From: a virus | Lineage: Duplodnaviria > Heunggongvirae > Uroviricota > Caudoviricetes | Length of the DNA: 6,599 bases | IMG/VR virus record: IMGVR_UViG_2675903254_000004 | Reading direction: 5' to 3' (one strand) | Part shown: piece after piece, positions 1-6,599 of the stretch | Layout of the letters: every line of letters begins with the position of its first letter | Position numbering within the stretch: position 1 is the stretch's first letter | The notes under the pieces: generated by a model | Told to the model about the DNA's origin: nothing | Seen by the model: the letters and a program-made list of their open reading frames with translations, nothing else | Database searches by the model: none | Program-made: the position numbers and the translations under genes

Positions 1-2118
1 TCACCACGGTGAACAATCCCCGCTGGCTCATATTTGCCGCCGGTTCCCGTAAATCCTCCGGTTGCAAAATGGAATTTCGCCGCAGCGGCCTGAATGGCTG
101 TACCGCCTGACGCGGATGCGCCGCCACCAACAGCCCCGCCAATGGCGCTGCCGATACTCCCGACAATCCCCACCATTGCCTGCTTAAGCAGAATTTCTGT
201 CATCATGGACAGCACGGAACGGGTGAAGCTGCGCCAGTTCTGCTCACTGCCGGTCAGCATCGCTGCCATATTCTGTGCAATACCATCAAAGGTCTGCGTG
301 GCTGCACTTTTTACCTGCGACATACTGTCCGTGGCGCTCTCTTCCCACTCACTCCAGCCGGACTTCAGGCCTGCCATCCAGCTCCCGCGAAGCTGGTCTT
401 CAGCCGCCCAGGTCTTTTTCTGCTCTGACATGACGTTATTCAGCGCCAGCGGATTATCGCCATACTGTTCCTTCAGGCGCTGTTCCGTGGCTTCCCGTTC
501 TGCCTGCCGGTCAGTCAGCCCCCGGCTTTTCGCATCAATGGCGGCCCGTTTTGCCCGTTGCTGCTGTGCGAATTTATCCGCCTGCTGCGCCAGCGCGTTC
601 AGGCNNNNNNNNNNNNNNNNNNNNNNNNNNNNNNNNNNNNNNNNNNGCTCCGGCATGCTTCTCCAGCGTCCGGAGTTCTGCCTGAAGCGTCAGCAGGGCA
701 GCATGAGCACTGTCTTCCTGACGATCGCCCGCAGACACCTTCACGCCGGACTGTTTCGGCTTTTTCAGCGTCGCTTCATAATCCTTTTTCGCCGCCGCCA
801 TCAGCGTGTTGTAATCCGCCTGCAGGATTTTCCCGTCTTTCAGTGCCTTGTTCAGTTCTTCCTGACGGGCGGTATATTTCTCCAGCGGCGTCTGCAGCCG
901 TTCGTAAGCCTTCTGCGCCTCTTCGGTATATTTCAGCCGTGACGCTTCGGTATCGCTCTGCTGCTGCGCATTTTTGTCCTGTTGAGTCTGCTGCTCAGCC
1001 TTCTTTCGGGCGGCTTCAAGCGCAAGACGGGCCTTTTCACGATCATCCCAGTAACGCGCCCGCGCTTCATCGTTAACAAAATAATCATCCTTGCGCAGAT
1101 TCCAGATGTCGTCTGCTTTCTTAAACGCAGCCTCTGCCTTAATCAGCATCTCCTGCGCGGTATCAGGACGACCAATATCCAGCACCGCATCCCACATGGA
1201 TTTGAAGGCCCGCGCAGTCCTGTCTGCCCAGGTCTCCAGCGTGCCCATGTTCTCTTTCAGGCGGCGGGTCTGGTCATCAAACCCTTTCGTTGCGGCCTCG
1301 TTCGCCGCCTGCAATGCCCCGGCTTCATCGCCGGAACGCTGCAACTGAGCAACATACGCAATCTGCTCCGCCGTCACGTTATGGAACTGGCGTGCCATCG
1401 CCGTCAGCCCCGACGTCGGGTCTGTGGTCAGCTTCCCGAAGGCTTCAGCGACCTTGTCCACCTCCACGCCGGATGCAGAGGAGAAACGCGCCACACTCTG
1501 GCTGATGGACGCAATCTGAGCCTCACCGCTTACCCCCGCCTTAACCAGTGCGCTGAGTGACTCGCTGGTCTGGTTAAACGTCAGCCCTGCCGCCTGCCCG
1601 GCTCTGGACAGGACCAGCATACGATCTGCCGTCAGTCCCGCCTGATTGCCGGAAAGGACCAGCGTTTTGTTGAAATCGGACAGGGTTGAGTTGCCCTGAT
1701 ACCAGGCATACGCCAGCGCACCGGTCGCCACCGCCAGCGAGGTGGCCCCCACCATCGGCAGGGTGATCGCACCGGCAAGCCCCCTGAACATGGGGATCAT
1801 CCCGCCGAAGGAGTCCTTCACCTGCCCCCCCTGTTGCAGCAGGATCAGCCACGGACTTTGCCCGCCTGCAAGCTGCGTGGCCACGTCGGTGAACTGTGCA
1901 GGCAGCATACGCATGGCGGCTTTATACTGCCCGACGGAAATCCCCGCTTTCTGTGCAGCCAGCGCCTGTCGGCTCAGCGACTGTTCAACGACTGCCGCTG
2001 TTTTTTTCGCATCACTTTCCGTACCGGAAAAATGACGCCTGACTCTGGCCATCTGCTCGTCAAATCTGGCCGCATCCAGACTTAAATCAACGACCAGATC
2101 GCCTACCGGTTCAGCCAT
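1..2118 (-). CDS. H: Tail tape measure protein (lambda gpH-like); partial, 3' end beyond window start; interrupted by N-run at 605-646
   Basis: ATG at 2118-2116 preceded by GGAGGAG (plus 2126-2132, 7-nt spacer). Translation MAEPVGDLVVDLSLDAARFDEQMARVRRHF... matches lambda gpH as I recall it. The frame stays open from 2118 down to the N-run. Below the gap a different minus frame continues the same protein (LNALAQQADKFAQQQRAKRAAIDAKSRGLTDRQ... through ...AAAAKFHFATGGFTGTGGKYEPAGIVHRGE at positions 1-90). The ORF-track end at 574 is an artefact of reading through the Ns in the wrong frame. Confidence 0.93.
605..646. other. Run of 42 N (assembly gap or masked sequence) inside the tape measure gene
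   Basis: Direct observation. H codons above the gap have their first base at positions divisible by 3 (e.g. 654, 651, 648); below the gap they fall at positions of the form 3k+2 (605, 602). The N-run length therefore cannot be the true length. Confidence 0.99.
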
Positions 2119-2949
2119 ACCGGACTCCTCCTGCGATCCCTTCTGATACTGTCATCAGCATTACGTCATCCTCCGTCATGTCCGCCACATCCGGGGAAGC
2201 GGGGATAACTTCATTCCCGTCCGGGCCAAAGCGGACGCCTCCGGCAAGCCCTGCCGCTTTCTGCATCAGCACATCATCTTCAGGCTCTTCGTCAGCCTCA
2301 CGCCGGTTCAGCAGACTGAAATCCAGCGGATGCATATCCGGATCGCTGAAAAACAGGCTGAGCACGGTGTACGTCAGCCCGGAAAAGTGCATATCCAGCA
2401 GAACATCATGAAAATAATGGGTACTGTAAAAGCGGTGCCAGTCGGCATACTCCGTGGATGACATCCCGGCAAGCATGGCACGCCAGTCGGGTCGCCCCAT
2501 CTCGCGCGCCAGTTTCAGGGCAAAACTCAGCTCACCGTCGAACACTTTCCCGCAGAAACAGGCTCTGCAGGCCCGGCGTCCTCTGCCTGTTCAGGGGCAT
2601 CATTCACCACAAACTCATACATACCGGACAGCCGGTACACCACGTTTTCAGCATGAGAAATTGCCTCTGTGGGCCAGGTGGTAAGCACTTCCTGCTCAAT
2701 CTGTTTAACGGCTTCATTCATGGAAGGCTGCTTTGTCTTCTGCGGATGGTTATGCCACAGGGACATCGCCACCACAAAAGCACCGGTTCTGATGGCGTCT
2801 TCCACTGTAAACTTCCGGTTGCTGTCTGACTCCGCCTGTTCTGCCTGCCGTTTCATCAGGGCGAGATGCTCAATACGCTGCAGGGCTGAAAGTTCAGAAA
2901 GCGTGACGGTCACGCCGTTATGTTCAAATGATTCGGTTTTCAGGAACAT
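2111..2949 (-). CDS. T: Tail assembly chaperone G-T fusion, made by programmed -1 ribosomal frameshift at GGGAAAG (2551-2545); T portion is 2111-2545
   Basis: The -1 frame ORF beginning within the slippery heptamer has no independent SD or ATG and translates (V)FDGELSFALKLAREMGRPDWRAMLAGMSSTEYADWHRFYSTHYFHDVLLDMHFSGL..., which is lambda gpT. Stop TGA at 2113-2111 overlaps the H start. Confidence 0.88.
2527..2949 (-). CDS. G: Tail assembly chaperone G (lambda gpG-like)
   Basis: ATG at 2949-2947 with GGAGAG upstream. The 140-aa product MFLKTESFEHNGVTVTLSELSALQRIEHLALMKRQAEQ...SAGKCSTVS matches lambda gpG in length and sequence. Stop TGA at 2529-2527. Confidence 0.95.
   Translation of the reverse strand: MFLKTESFEHNGVTVTLSELSALQRIEHLALMKRQAEQAESDSNRKFTVEDAIRTGAFVVAMSLWHNHPQKTKQPSMNEAVKQIEQEVLTTWPTEAISHAENVVYRLSGMYEFVVNDAPEQAEDAGPAEPVSAGKCSTVS
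2545..2551 (-). promoter_or_regulatory. Slippery heptanucleotide G GGA AAG (X XXY YYZ) for the -1 frameshift joining G to T
   Basis: The minus strand reads GCG GGA AAG TGT in the G frame (codons S-A-G-K-C near the G C-terminus). Re-pairing in the -1 frame gives GGG AAA then GTG TTC GAC GGT = V F D G, the start of the T-frame ORF. Confidence 0.85.
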
Positions 2950-2964
2950 CGCTGACTCTCCGGA

Positions 2965-3705
2965 TTAACTGTCGGTGACAGTGATTTCTGCAACCGCAGC
3001 AAGTTCACCATTACCGGATACGACCGGAATGTTGACCTTGCCTGCAGCAACACCTTTCACGGTGATGGTCATACCACTGACCGACACGGTGGCTTTTGTT
3101 TTATCCGCAGACACCGCACGGAAGCTCTTGTCGGTTGCGCCTTCCGGCTGGAATGCCACGGTCAGCGTGGTGCTCTGCCCTTTCACCACCGAGGTGCTGG
3201 CAGGCGTCACGGTCATGCCGGTTGCCGCTGTGACCGTGCTGCGATCTTCTGCCATCGACGGGCGTCCCACATTGGTGACCTTCACCGTGCGGGTGATCAC
3301 TTCCTTCGCCGTCACCGCTTTACCGATACTGCTGACCCAGCCACGGAACACATCGACCGTGCCGTTCGGGAAGCGGATTTTATAGGCACGGGTATCACCT
3401 TCATTAAACCACGCCAGCAGCGCCTGCTGCCCCTGCTCTCCGGGCATCCACGCCAGCGTGAAGCTGGTATCTCCGGCTGATTTCTGCCCCTGCCCGGTCG
3501 CAGTCCAGTCCGCATCTTCATCATCGAGATAGCTGTCGTCATAGGACTCAGCGGTCAGTTCGCCGGGCGTCAGGTCTTTAACTTTTGCCAGACGCGACCA
3601 GTCAACGTCTGAAAGCGGATTCGCATAAGGGTCACCGCTCCCCTTATAAACCCACAGGGTGGTCCCGGCACCTTTCACCGGCATTACAGGATTTGGTACA
3701 GGCAT
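2965..3705 (-). CDS. V: Major tail tube protein (lambda gpV-like) with C-terminal Ig-like domain
   Basis: ATG at 3705-3703 with GAGGA upstream. The 246-aa product [57 protein letters not shown]... matches lambda gpV. The C-terminal ~85 aa ([32 protein letters not shown]...[18 protein letters not shown]) is the Ig-like (Big_2-type) domain. The ORF-track start at 3735 is an upstream extension that would overlap U and was not used. Confidence 0.96.
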
Positions 3706-3712
3706 AGCGTCC

Positions 3713-4108
3713 TCACATTTCATAGGTAATGACATAAGTCAGATCGGCTGAACTCCACAGGCCCGCATCATCGTCGCGTCGGTAGTCATAGCCACTGGCC
3801 ACCATACTGGTGATCAACTCTGACAGTGCCGGGATATCGCTCATCACCGGATAAATCCGGGACTCCATCCACGCATCCAGCTCTGAATCCGGCACCTGAG
3901 CAGGCAGGAAAACTTCGATATGCAGCTCCGCCTGCCAGGTATCGCTGTCCAGCTCTTCGCCCGTGTATTCAGCGCCGGTGAGATAAACGGCAACTGCCGG
4001 AAAATCCGCCTCATCAAAAACAGCGGGGCGACCATCAAAAAACGTCGCCCCGGTGTCATGCTTCTCCAGTGCATCCAGTACGGCTGCACGGAGTTCAGTA
4101 TGTTTCAT
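3713..4108 (-). CDS. U: Tail terminator protein (lambda gpU-like)
   Basis: The 131-aa product [71 protein letters not shown]...TYVITYEM matches lambda gpU. The start ATG overlaps the Z stop as ATGA (4105-4108). Confidence 0.96.
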
Positions 4109-4683
4109 CGCTTTATTACCATCCTCAGTTGATGCTGCAGCGCATAGCCCAGCTCTTTCGGAAGACGTTCACGCCGTATCCGCTCAATATTTTGTTTAAA
4201 CGCCGTGGTCAGCGGCACCGCCATCGGGATTTTCACCACATCAATGGGGTAACGGTTTTTCCCGGCCACACGCTGCATAACATGCCACCGGCCATTTTTC
4301 AGTTGCTGAATAAACGCGCCGGGAATACGACGGTTACCCACCACAAGCACGCTGCCGCCACCTTTCAGGGATGAACGCTGCCCCTTTTTACGACGCCTGC
4401 GGCGCGAAAGGACAACCCGCGCATTACCCAGCTTGATTACGGGCAAATCCCCCCGGTTAACCTTGATTCTGGCCTGCGGATTTTTGACCGTGGCCCTTTT
4501 CAGCCTGGCCCTTTCCTTTACCAGTTTCCGGCGTACCTTTGTCTCACGGGCAACCTGTGACACCGACTGCGATATCGCGGATGAAGCAACGCGGTTAATG
4601 GCCATTGCGGCGGCACCGGGCACCGCCGTTCTGCTGATACGGCTGAGGTTTTCAACGGCCTGCTCAAGACCTTTTATGGCCAT
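4105..4683 (-). CDS. Z: Tail completion protein (lambda gpZ-like)
   Basis: The 192-aa product MAIKGLEQAVENLSRISRTAVPGAAAMAINRVASSAISQS...[12 protein letters not shown] matches lambda gpZ, including the RRRRRKKGQRSS basic tract. ATG at 4683-4681 with AGGGGGA upstream. Confidence 0.96.
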   Translation of the reverse strand: MAIKGLEQAVENLSRISRTAVPGAAAMAINRVASSAISQSVSQVARETKVRRKLVKERARLKRATVKNPQARIKVNRGDLPVIKLGNARVVLSRRRRRKKGQRSSLKGGGSVLVVGNRRIPGAFIQQLKNGRWHVMQRVAGKNRYPIDVVKIPMAVPLTTAFKQNIERIRRERLPKELGYALQHQLRMVIKR

Positions 4684-5048
4684 ACATCCCCCTTCCAGCG
4701 GCGACGGTTAACGGCAGGCGGTACGCCCCGCCCAAGCCAGAGATGACAGCTTCCGCCATCATCCGGCGAAATCCGGTCTATCCAGAAGTTTTCCTCACCG
4801 ATGGTCAGCGTGTCGCCGCGCCGCAGCTGCCGCACATCATCAGTCCGGACAAACAGGGACGGGCTGGAGCCTTCAACGCGCACGCCCTGTCCGGCATAGC
4901 TGATATTTTCAGGGTCATCAAAAACACCACGTATCACAGCACCGGACTGCTCACCGGATGTCATGGTGGCTGACGTTCCCATGTACCCGCGTATCGTTTC
5001 ATCGGCGCAGGCAATGGCAGCATCGAACAGGTTATCGAAATCAGCCAC
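4674..5048 (-). CDS. FII: Head-tail joining protein (lambda gpFII-like); GTG start; C-terminus 7 codons longer than the 117 aa I recall for lambda FII
   Basis: GTG at 5048-5046 preceded by GGGAGG. Product (M)ADFDNLFDAAIACADETIRGYMGTSATMTSGEQSGAVIRGVFDDPENISYAGQGVRVEGSSPSLFVRTDD...GVPPAVNRRR followed by WKGDVWP and TAA at 4676-4674. The 3' end overlaps the Z start by 10 nt. Confidence 0.9.
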   Translation of the reverse strand: MADFDNLFDAAIACADETIRGYMGTSATMTSGEQSGAVIRGVFDDPENISYAGQGVRVEGSSPSLFVRTDDVRQLRRGDTLTIGEENFWIDRISPDDGGSCHLWLGRGVPPAVNRRRWKGDVWP

Positions 5049-5059
5049 AGCGCCTCCCG

Positions 5060-5455
5060 TTATTGCATTCTGGCCAGGCCGCGCTCTGTCATTTCAGCTG
5101 CCACACCGGCAGAGACACGGAACGCCGTTCCCGGCAGCACAAATGCCACAGCCTCATCCCGCGTGGCGTGAAGTGCATCAGTATGCAGCGTCACCAGTGC
5201 CACAACCGTGACCAGATCAGCCGTATCAGTCACGGTATCCGGCTGCGCTGATACAACCTCATTTTCATGTCCGGTCAGCGCATTTTCCGGGCTGACAGAT
5301 GTGTCCTGACCGGCAGCGTCATCCGTGTCATCAAGCTCCTCTTCCAGCTCTGCCACACGGAGTGCCAGTTCTTCTTTCGTCCCCGTCAGGCTGACATCAC
5401 GGTTCAGTTGCTCACCCAGCACCTGAAGACGGGCAATCAGTTCATCTTTCGTCAT
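5060..5455 (-). CDS. FI: Head assembly / DNA packaging accessory protein (lambda gpFI-like)
   Basis: ATG at 5455-5453 preceded by GGAGGAG (plus 5459-5465). The 131-aa product MTKDELIARLQVLGEQLNRDVSLTGTKEELALRVAELEEELDDTDD...HTDALHATRDEAVAFVLPGTAFRVSAGVAAEMTERGLARMQ matches lambda gpFI. The ORF-track start at 5494 is an upstream extension into the intergenic hairpin and was not used. Confidence 0.93.
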   Translation of the reverse strand: MTKDELIARLQVLGEQLNRDVSLTGTKEELALRVAELEEELDDTDDAAGQDTSVSPENALTGHENEVVSAQPDTVTDTADLVTVVALVTLHTDALHATRDEAVAFVLPGTAFRVSAGVAAEMTERGLARMQ

Positions 5456-5467
5456 GGACTCCTCCAC

Positions 5468-5494
5468 AGAGAGAAAATGGCCCCGAAGGGCCAT
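5468..5494 (-). terminator. 7-bp stem-loop with UUCG tetraloop plus U-rich tail between E and FI, directly upstream of the FI ribosome binding site
   Basis: Minus-strand RNA reads AUGGCCC UUCG GGGCCAU UUUCUCUCU, then GUGGAGGAGUCC AUG (FI). The arms are plus 5477-5483 and 5488-5494, an exact inverted repeat. Confidence 0.4.
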
Positions 5495-5496
5495 GA

Positions 5497-6522
5497 TTAC
5501 GCCAGTTGTACGGACACGAACGCATCAGGGTCAGCCAGCAGCATCAGCGGTGCTGACTGAATCATGGTGAACTCACGCGCCGGATCGCCGGTGGTCACCC
5601 AGTTTTTCGGGTAGCGGGCAGAGGCGTTAATACCTTCGCGCTGTGCGTCCGCATCCTGAATGCAGCCATAGGTGCGCAGACCGCGTGCCTGAGTGTTCCC
5701 CAGCACCATCGTGTTGTCCGGAAGGAAGTTCTTTTTGACGTCGTTTTCCACGTACTGTCCGGAATACACGACGATCGCCGTATCGCCATACATCCCCTTA
5801 TAGGACACCGCTTCGCCCAGGTCTTTTACCGCTGTCTCCAGCTCGGAATGAGAGCCGCGACGGGTATCCAGCTTCTCCTTGACGGCTTTGAAGGAACGGA
5901 ACAGCGCCCAGCCTTTCGGATCAAACACGATGATATTCACCACACCGCTGGCGTTCAGCGCGTAGGCTTCGATATCGTCGGTCGGGTCATACGTGGACTT
6001 GTCACGCTTGCTCCACTCCGTACCGCCGGACTGCGTGATGTTGTTCGCCACACTGCGGCCCATATCCACTTCAACCGGATCGAAGGCTTCACCGGTCATG
6101 GTGTATTTGCCCTTAAGCACGGCAGAAACTGCCTGCATCTCTTCGACCTGAGCAATGGCCAGCTCTTCGTCTCGCATGTTCTGCAGGATGATGCGACGGC
6201 GGCGGTAAGCCGGGTCCGCCAGATTCTGTGGATCTTCATCCGGCAGGCGACGCAGGGTCATCTGCGGATTCACTTCATGCTTGGGTTTGACATATCCCGG
6301 CGTAAATTCAGAGGTGGAGCCGCCACGGGAGCGGATAACCTCACCGGAAACAATCGGCGAAACGTACAGCGCCATGTTTACCAGTCCCGGAATTTGTGAG
6401 AGATAGACTTTCTCCGTGGTGAAGGGATAGCTCTCACGGAAAAAGAGACGCAGAAACAGCGGATCAAACTTAAATTTCTGCTCATTTGCCGCCAGCAGCT
6501 GGGCGGTTGTGTACATCGACAT
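5497..6522 (-). CDS. E: Major capsid protein (lambda gpE-like)
   Basis: ATG at 6522-6520. The 341-aa product MSMYTTAQLLAANEQKFKFDPLFLRLFFRESYPFTTEKVYLSQIPGLVNMALYVSPIVSGEVIRSRGGSTSEFTPGYVKPKHEV...MLLADPDAFVSVQLA matches lambda gpE. TAA at 5499-5497. The ORF-track start (GTG at 6549) lies inside the upstream hairpin and was not used. Confidence 0.97.
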   Translation of the reverse strand: MSMYTTAQLLAANEQKFKFDPLFLRLFFRESYPFTTEKVYLSQIPGLVNMALYVSPIVSGEVIRSRGGSTSEFTPGYVKPKHEVNPQMTLRRLPDEDPQNLADPAYRRRRIILQNMRDEELAIAQVEEMQAVSAVLKGKYTMTGEAFDPVEVDMGRSVANNITQSGGTEWSKRDKSTYDPTDDIEAYALNASGVVNIIVFDPKGWALFRSFKAVKEKLDTRRGSHSELETAVKDLGEAVSYKGMYGDTAIVVYSGQYVENDVKKNFLPDNTMVLGNTQARGLRTYGCIQDADAQREGINASARYPKNWVTTGDPAREFTMIQSAPLMLLADPDAFVSVQLA

Positions 6523-6577: not shown

Positions 6578-6599
6578 TTAAACGATGCTGATTGCCGTT
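6578..6599 (-). CDS. D: Head decoration protein (lambda gpD-like), last 6 codons plus stop only; 5' end outside window
   Basis: The minus strand at the window end reads ACG GCA ATC AGC ATC GTT TAA = T-A-I-S-I-V-stop, the lambda gpD C-terminus as I recall it. It sits about 55 nt upstream of the E start, the same spacing as in lambda. Confidence 0.8.

What the first reader, a model, noticed from the sequence alone, without database searches (positions are those of the whole stretch)
605..646. Frame-breaking 42-N gap inside the tape measure gene hides an unknown amount of sequence
The H reading frame is intact on both sides of the N-run but is offset by one base across it, so the 42 Ns are a placeholder. 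My recollection of lambda gpH puts about 64 residues between the flanking peptides TLEKHAG and LNALAQQ, which would mean roughly 188 nt is missing; 188 is also congruent with the frame offset. This is the only place in the window where sequence I cannot read could differ from the lambda layout (indel, repeat collapse, insertion). Everything else is accounted for.
Basis: partly seen in the sequence, partly recalled or inferred. Interest (0 to 1): 0.45.

Follow-up and report, generated by a model that had tools for sequence, protein, structure and literature searches.

The report
Assembly gap inside lambda-type tape-measure gene
The 42 unread bases are an assembly placeholder for about 188 ordinary bases of a well-known phage tail-length gene, sitting exactly where two near-identical prophage copies in related E. 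coli genomes differ, so the finding is an artefact and not new biology.

Summary
Positions 605-646 are the window's only N-run (42 N). It lies in the minus-strand tape-measure gene H, and the reading frame is shifted by one base across it.

The window is not lambda itself. It is a lambdoid prophage of the STEC O26/O103/O111 type, with 0 mismatches over all 6,557 readable bases to E. coli 2003-3014, which has an intact 853-aa H.

The cause can be inferred. In two related complete genomes (E2865, RM8385), a second prophage copy of H is identical to the window-type copy from 279-604 and from 793-1048 (coordinates with the 188 nt restored). It differs at 605, 699, 717, 747, 750 and 792, so the first and last hidden bases are the outermost differences between the copies. 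Shared k-mer runs end at 604 and resume at 793 for every k tested. This is what an unresolved assembly bubble between repeat copies looks like.

The source contig could not be found, so the gap was not closed directly. A hidden insertion or length variant is unlikely (about 3%). Interest is low.

The parts
605..646 (.). Run of 42 N. It is a placeholder for about 188 nt, covering gpH codons 491-554 apart from the two bases at each end that are readable.
   Evidence: the only N-run in the window; the flanks are 188 nt apart in relatives.
647..2118 (-). 5' part of tape-measure gene H: residues 1-490 plus the first two bases of codon 491. It contains the Pfam TMP_2 domain (residues 54-256).
   Evidence: translation; annotation of the relative that is identical at every readable base; Pfam on that relative's protein.
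1..604 (-). Middle to C-terminal part of gene H: the last two bases of codon 554 and residues 555-754. It contains Pfam Tape_meas_lam_C (residues 627-701). The last ~99 codons of H lie beyond the window edge.
   Evidence: (only one open frame, starting LNALAQQ).
279..604 (.). 326 nt that are identical between the window-type H copy and a second prophage copy in the same genome (E2865, RM8385). This is a collapsible repeat that ends exactly at the left edge of the gap.
647..902 (.). 256 nt (793-1048 with the 188 nt restored) that are identical between the same two prophage copies. This collapsible repeat starts exactly at the right edge of the gap.
2111..2545 (-). Gene T reading frame, expressed as the G-T fusion (tape-measure chaperone).
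2527..2949 (-). Gene G (tail assembly chaperone).
2545..2551 (-). G GGA AAG slippery heptamer for the -1 frameshift that makes G-T. A simulated -1 shift gives an open G-T fusion.
2965..6522 (-). Context genes V (2965-3705), U (3713-4108), Z (4105-4683), FII (4674-5048), FI (5060-5455) and E (5497-6522), all intact. The 3' end of D starts at 6578.
   Evidence: annotation of the identical relative; no internal stops; 92.7-99.0% identity to lambda.

Best explanation
The N-run is a scaffolding placeholder left by a short-read assembly of an E. coli genome of the STEC O26/O103/O111 type that carries several lambdoid prophages. It replaces 188 nt of ordinary tape-measure gene H (gpH residues 491-554, part of the unresolved helical 'ruler' that fills the tail tube). 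At least one other prophage in such genomes has an H gene that is identical for about 326 nt to the left and 256 nt to the right, but differs at six sites within those 188 nt, including the very first and very last base. An assembler collapses the identical stretches, cannot choose between the two versions of the island, and joins the flanks with Ns whose number (42) is only a rough distance estimate. The true sequence is most probably the 188-nt haplotype of the identical relatives (plus strand GCTCCTGATACG...GATTTTCTCATTC). That would give an intact 853-aa H and a normal-length tail. What is shown: the 188-nt spacing in relatives, the identity of the flanks, and the match between the gap edges and the variant sites. 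What is inferred: that the source genome also holds the second copy, and that an assembler bubble produced the Ns.
For: (1) 188-nt spacing. The flanks are exactly 188 nt apart in lambda and in two E. coli prophages and in 17 of 19 loci from species-representative genomes. All 25+25+30 listed best hits span the query length plus 146, as do 56 of 57 evenly sampled full-coverage E. coli rows.
(2) Identity to a complete relative. The window has 0 mismatches in 6,557 readable bases to NZ_CP101292.1, where H is annotated as an intact 2,562-nt gene. The hidden peptide is identical in lambda and in two STEC-type relatives.
(3) Census. The reconstructed 388-nt segment is held at 80% coverage or more in one place by 3,722 of 3,734 matching records, and 57 of 60 sampled rows are a single 388-nt piece.
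(4) Copy number. The region is present 4-9 times in the closest genomes.
(5) Gap edges. In E2865 and RM8385 the window-type copy and a second copy differ near the gap only at 264, 278 | 605, 699, 717, 747, 750, 792 | 1049 in restored coordinates. Only 1 of 1,165 placements of a 188-nt interval has both ends on variant sites, and it is the observed one.
(6) Simulation. Shared k-mer runs between the two copies end at 604 and the next long one starts at 793 for k = 21 to 127.
(7) Second haplotype in the closest relatives. At least 14 of the 30 genomes that matched the whole window at 100% also hold it at 100% over 388 nt elsewhere on the chromosome.
(8) Hot spot. Only 408 records are >=99% identical over the query centred on the hidden part, against 1,937 for the flanks-only query. 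Lambda versus the relative has 5 SNPs in the 188 nt and 15 in the other 2,374 nt (Fisher p = 0.013), and all five inside are synonymous.
Against: The source contig and its reads were not found, so the gap was not closed and the second copy is not shown to exist in the source genome. The number 42 is unexplained, being 146 short of the true distance. The assembler got past the isolated between-copy SNPs at 264, 278 and 1049 without a gap, so the two-copy model is a simplification. NZ_CP101292.1 itself was not among the 60 tied rows shown for the second haplotype, so it could not be assessed.
Confidence: 0.92

Rival explanations
1. The Ns were put there on purpose by a data provider or pipeline (masking), and are not the result of an assembler failing on a repeat.
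For: The description of the genome-contig collection says a few stretches are masked and read as runs of N. The source record could not be found to check this.
Against: A mask normally keeps length, but 42 is not 188. Both edges fall exactly on the outermost variant sites between prophage copies of related genomes, at 1 of 1,165 possible placements. An arbitrary mask would not be expected to do that. None of the 19 genome-contig loci holding this sequence has any N.
Confidence: 0.04
2. The source prophage really differs here. One version is a 146-nt deletion with 42 unread bases, which would frameshift and inactivate H. The other is a larger insertion, such as an IS element, hidden in the gap.
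For: The literal reading of the window gives a frameshifted H that stops at 574. STEC prophages are often degraded: the window-like copy in E2865 has an internal stop in the C40 peptidase gene, and H138 is a decayed prophage.
Against: No contig in the viral or metagenome collections has these flanks 42 positions apart. None of the evenly sampled E. coli rows has that spacing. An IS insertion would leave the flanks adjacent in the reference, not 188 nt apart, and would give a gap estimate above 1 kb, not 42. The relatives that are identical at every readable base have the plain 188 nt.
Confidence: 0.02
3. The gap hides a natural in-frame variant of the ruler segment, either the +21-nt (7-residue) type or a recombinant of the two haplotypes. 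The tape measure would then differ slightly from that of the relatives.
For: A +21-nt variant with a diverged patch exists inside exactly this segment, after residue 515 (H127; H198). About 142-146 records have a diverged version (60-80% identity) as their best copy. The segment is a hot spot of variation. Gene conversion between prophage copies is plausible.
Against: The +21 variant sampled across the flanks, H127, is only 97.5% identical there, whereas the window's flanks are 100% identical to relatives carrying the 188-nt form. A recombinant of the two 188-nt haplotypes would change no amino acid, because the five differences between the lambda-type and window-type haplotypes are synonymous.
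Confidence: 0.02

Closest known systems
Bacteriophage lambda gene H / gpH tail tape-measure protein (J02459 10542-13103, AAA96548.1; PDB 8iyk chain H)
   Same: It occupies the same position in the operon, after G and G-T and before M. The readable parts are 99.5-99.7% identical in nucleotides to lambda H. The domains are the same, TMP_2 and Tape_meas_lam_C. The peptides flanking the gap are identical, and in the relatives so is the hidden peptide.
   Different: The window is not lambda itself. The neighbouring genes G, V, FII, FI and E are only 92.7-97.6% identical to lambda, and the closest relative's H protein differs from lambda gpH at 5 residues. In the window, 188 nt are replaced by 42 N.
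Lambdoid prophage tape-measure gene of non-O157 STEC (WP_000840230.1 in E. coli 2003-3014, NZ_CP101292.1; WP_000840236.1 in E2865 and RM8385)
   Same: 0 mismatches (2003-3014) or 1 mismatch (RM8385) over all 6,557 readable bases of the window, with the same gene order from H to D.
   Different: Those records are complete genomes with the 188 nt present. The window has the N-run.
Estimated-size scaffold gaps in short-read draft assemblies, caused by unresolved bubbles between repeat copies
   Same: The run consists only of N, and its length does not match the homologous distance. Its edges lie at the ends of stretches shared between repeat copies, and the region is multi-copy in relatives.
   Different: The assembler, the library and the source record are unknown, so this is inferred from relatives and was not read from an AGP file or a gap annotation.

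Membership tests
Lambda-type tail tape-measure protein (gpH family) | N-terminal TMP_2 domain (PF06791) | tested here: met
   E = 7.4e-70, residues 54-256, on the protein of the relative. The window's readable bases 647-2118 encode those residues with 0 nucleotide mismatches to that relative.
Lambda-type tail tape-measure protein (gpH family) | Tape_meas_lam_C domain (PF09718) in the C-terminal third | tested here: met
   E = 3.7e-21, residues 627-701. These are encoded in window 1-604, which is identical to the relative.
Lambda-type tail tape-measure protein (gpH family) | The gene lies directly downstream of the G / G-T chaperone pair, which has a -1 frameshift site | tested here: met
   T overlaps the start of H (2111-2118). 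GGGAAAG is at 2545-2551 on the minus strand, and a simulated -1 shift gives an open G-T fusion.
Lambda-type tail tape-measure protein (gpH family) | One uninterrupted reading frame of about 853 codons, whose length sets the tail length | tested here: inconclusive
   In the window the frame is broken by the N-run and the 3' end lies outside the window. In every close relative the frame is intact at 853 aa.
Assembly (scaffold) gap caused by a repeat-copy bubble | A run of N whose length disagrees with the homologous distance | tested here: met
   42 N against 188 nt.
Assembly (scaffold) gap caused by a repeat-copy bubble | The gap edges coincide with the ends of sequence shared between repeat copies | tested here: met
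   the copies differ at 605 and 792 and are identical over 279-604 and 793-1048; shared k-mer runs end at 604 and restart at 793 for k = 21 to 127. This was tested in two related genomes, not in the source.
Assembly (scaffold) gap caused by a repeat-copy bubble | The source genome holds two or more copies, and reads show mixed bases or raised coverage at the site | not testable with these tools
   The source contig and reads were not found. The relatives hold 4-9 copies.

The most novel reading that the evidence does not exclude
The source prophage might carry a ruler segment of a different length behind the Ns, for example the natural +7-residue variant or a product of recombination between prophage copies. 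Its tape measure, and in principle its tail length, would then differ from those of its otherwise identical relatives.
Probability: 0.03. Interest if true: 0.15.

Novelty: not a real feature. Interest (0 to 1): 0.04.

Why it matters
It matters little for biology. The gene is lambda-type H, one of the best-known phage genes, and the hidden part is almost certainly the ordinary 188 nt.

The practical point concerns annotation. Read literally, the window gives a frameshifted, truncated tape measure of 514 aa, which a pipeline would call a pseudogene or a defective prophage. That call would be an artefact.

The case also shows that short islands of variation between otherwise identical prophage copies are where short-read assemblies of STEC genomes break. 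N-run edges that coincide with variant sites between copies are a usable sign of this kind of gap.

Tried and rejected
Searches for the source record, all negative:
- An exact pattern of the two flanks 42 positions apart found nothing in viral contigs or metagenome contigs. One search showed that a pattern N does match a sequence N.
- A left-flank 45-mer scan of genome contigs gave 19 loci, none with Ns.
- A look-up of the literal 514-aa read-through product found nothing.
- The phage collection has no 100% match; the best is 99.7%.

Ideas considered and dropped:
- IS insertion: the flanks would then be adjacent in the reference, not 188 nt apart.
- An internal repeat within H causing a collapse: the hidden 188 nt share no 14-mer or longer with the rest of the 12.3-kb locus.
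- A functional hot spot for ManYZ or SNIPE interaction: the literature places that at gpH A304V, in the region of residues 300-400, which is in the readable part.

I could not list every copy of H within one genome, because the search tool shows only the best place per record. Two copies per genome were recovered indirectly by using two different queries.

H138, whose span looked 12 nt short, turned out to be a decayed prophage with only a partial match. I did not follow it further.

Full report
**Observation.** The window contains one N-run, at 605-646, exactly 42 bases long. It lies inside a long minus-strand reading frame. From the ATG at 2118 the frame is open down to 647 and ends ...LRTLEKHAG plus two leftover bases, GC. 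Below the gap, only one of the three minus-strand frames of 604..1 is open, and it begins LNALAQQADKF.... The two frames are one base out of register across 42 N. A literal reading therefore runs through 14 unknown codons into the wrong frame and stops at 574.

**What the region is.** The first 2,200 bases are 99.6% identical to lambda J02459, where they cover genes H and T. The window is not lambda itself. Over all 6,599 bases the best matches are prophages in complete genomes of non-O157 Shiga-toxin-producing E. coli (O26, O103, O111 and relatives). Against E. coli 2003-3014 (NZ_CP101292.1) there are 0 mismatches in the 6,557 readable bases. That record's annotation gives the gene order on the minus strand: tape measure H, T, G, V-like tail tube, U, Z, head-tail joining FII, FI, major capsid E, and the end of D. 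All of these are intact in the window, and the G GGA AAG slippery site for the G-T frameshift is kept at 2545-2551. Identity to lambda is 99.3-99.7% in H and T but 92.7-97.6% in G, V, FII, FI and E, so this is a mosaic lambdoid prophage. The relative's H protein has the Pfam domains TMP_2 (residues 54-256) and Tape_meas_lam_C (residues 627-701), and it matches the lambda tape-measure chain 8iyk_H end to end.

**How much is hidden.**
- In lambda and in two E. coli prophages, the 30-mers on either side of the gap are exactly 188 nt apart.
- The same holds in 17 of the 19 loci found by scanning one genome per species. Of the other two, one is cut off by the locus edge and one is a low-coverage contig with an indel.
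- Every best hit listed in three searches spans the query length plus 146, which is 188 minus 42.
- In an even sample of the 3,732 matching E. coli records, 56 of 57 full-coverage rows have that span. The exception has +21 nt.
- The hidden stretch encodes gpH residues 491-554: ANEKISQQRRDLWKAESQFAVLEEAAQRRQLSAQEKSLLAHKDETLEYKRQLAALGDKVTYQER. It is identical in lambda and in two STEC-type relatives.
- A census with the reconstructed 388-nt segment found it at 80% coverage or more in one place in 3,722 of 3,734 matching records. 57 of 60 evenly sampled rows are a single 388-nt piece.

**Why the gap is there.** The region is multi-copy. 3,712 of 5,426 complete E. coli genomes match the flanks query, the median is 2 places per genome, and the closest relatives have 4 to 9 places. 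For strain E2865, two different queries returned two different places, which gave me two copies from one genome. Below I use coordinates in which the 188 nt are restored, so the hidden part is 605-792.

The window-like copy and the second copy differ near the gap only at 264, 278 | 605, 699, 717, 747, 750, 792 | 1049. They are identical over 279-604 (326 nt) and 793-1048 (256 nt). The first and last hidden bases are therefore exactly the outermost differences of a small island between the two copies. RM8385 (O103) gives the same result. Its window-type copy has 1 mismatch to the window and the same 188-nt filler as 2003-3014. Of the 1,165 ways to place a 188-nt interval in that neighbourhood, only one has variant sites at both ends, and it is the one the Ns occupy. 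A k-mer comparison of the two real copies shows that the shared runs, which are what an assembler collapses, end at 604, and that the next long one starts at 793, for k = 21, 31, 55, 77, 99 and 127.

At least 14 of the 30 genomes that matched the whole window at 100% also carry the second haplotype at 100% over 388 nt elsewhere on the chromosome. The remaining 16 could not be assessed, because the list is cut off at 60 tied rows. The island is also a hot spot across the population. Only 408 records are >=99% identical over the query centred on the hidden part, against 1,937 for the flanks-only query. Lambda and the relative differ at 5 of the 188 hidden bases but at only 15 of the other 2,374 bases of H (p = 0.013), and all five inside are synonymous.

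From this I infer that the source is a short-read scaffold of a multi-prophage E. coli genome. The assembler could not resolve this bubble, and it joined the flanks with an estimated number of Ns.

**Function of the hidden part.** From the literature, gpH is the ruler around which the 32 gpV rings polymerise, and it sets the tail length. Only residues 818-849 have been resolved, in the tail tip. The rest, including residues 491-554, is an unresolved oligomer inside the tube (PMC10721106, read). The site linked to ManYZ-independent DNA entry, and the region that correlates with SNIPE susceptibility, lie at A304V and around residues 300-400, which are readable in the window (bioRxiv 10.1101/2025.11.03.685801, read). 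Nothing specific is known to map to 491-554. A natural variant with 7 extra residues after position 515 and a diverged patch does exist within the hidden segment. However, the example sampled across the flanks (H127) is only 97.5% identical there, whereas the window's flanks are identical to copies with the plain 188-nt form.

**Limits.** I could not find the source record in the viral, metagenome or species-representative collections, or through the literal read-through protein. The gap is therefore closed only by inference from relatives. The number 42 is unexplained (188 - 42 = 146). The assembler passed the isolated between-copy SNPs at 264, 278 and 1049 without a gap, so with 4-9 copies in such genomes the real assembly graph is more complex than my two-copy comparison.

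**Verdict.** The feature is an assembly artefact lying over an ordinary and well-known gene. The chance that something unusual is hidden is a few percent, and even then it would most likely be a known kind of minor length variant.

Noticed in passing
L005-L023 (genome-contig loci): An exact 45-mer of lambda gene H occurs in 19 species-representative assemblies, 18 of them not Escherichia (for example Paenibacillus, Pseudomonas, Shewanella, Chromatium, Bradyrhizobium, Enterococcus). Several contigs are about 48.4-48.5 kb, the size of a whole lambda genome, and many carry about 1x coverage in their names. Where the whole H gene is present, its identity to the relative equals that of lambda J02459 (99.219%). 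This looks like lambda DNA contamination or spike-in in public assemblies, not prophages.
   Followed up: partly
L004:1899-4481 (NZ_CP080139.1), and H198 NZ_CP058618.1; corresponds to the hidden segment of the window: There is a natural in-frame +21-nt (7-residue) insertion after gpH residue 515, with a diverged patch around it, giving a tape measure of 860 aa. About 142-146 E. coli records have a diverged version (60-80% identity) of this segment as their best copy.
   Followed up: partly
window 2527-6522: The window is a mosaic lambdoid prophage, not lambda. H and T are 99.3-99.7% identical to lambda, but G is 96.0%, V 97.0%, FII 96.3%, FI 92.7% (with a 3-nt indel) and E 97.6%.
   Followed up: yes
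window 4674-5048 (-): RefSeq annotates the head-tail joining gene (FII) of the identical relative from a GTG start at 5048, giving 124 aa. Lambda FII is annotated as 117 aa from an ATG 21 nt downstream. This is probably only a difference in start-codon choice.
   Followed up: no
L026:626-1369 (E2865, NZ_AP018808.1 647519-648262): In E2865 the prophage copy that is almost identical to the window has an internal stop in the C40-family peptidase gene (lambda K homologue). That copy is therefore probably defective for tail assembly, even though its H gene is intact.
   Followed up: no
window 605-646 versus restored coordinates 750-792: 188 - 42 = 146 = 2 x 73, and the last two between-copy variant sites are also 42 nt apart. 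Either could hint at how the scaffolder arrived at 42, or both could be coincidence (note).
   Followed up: no
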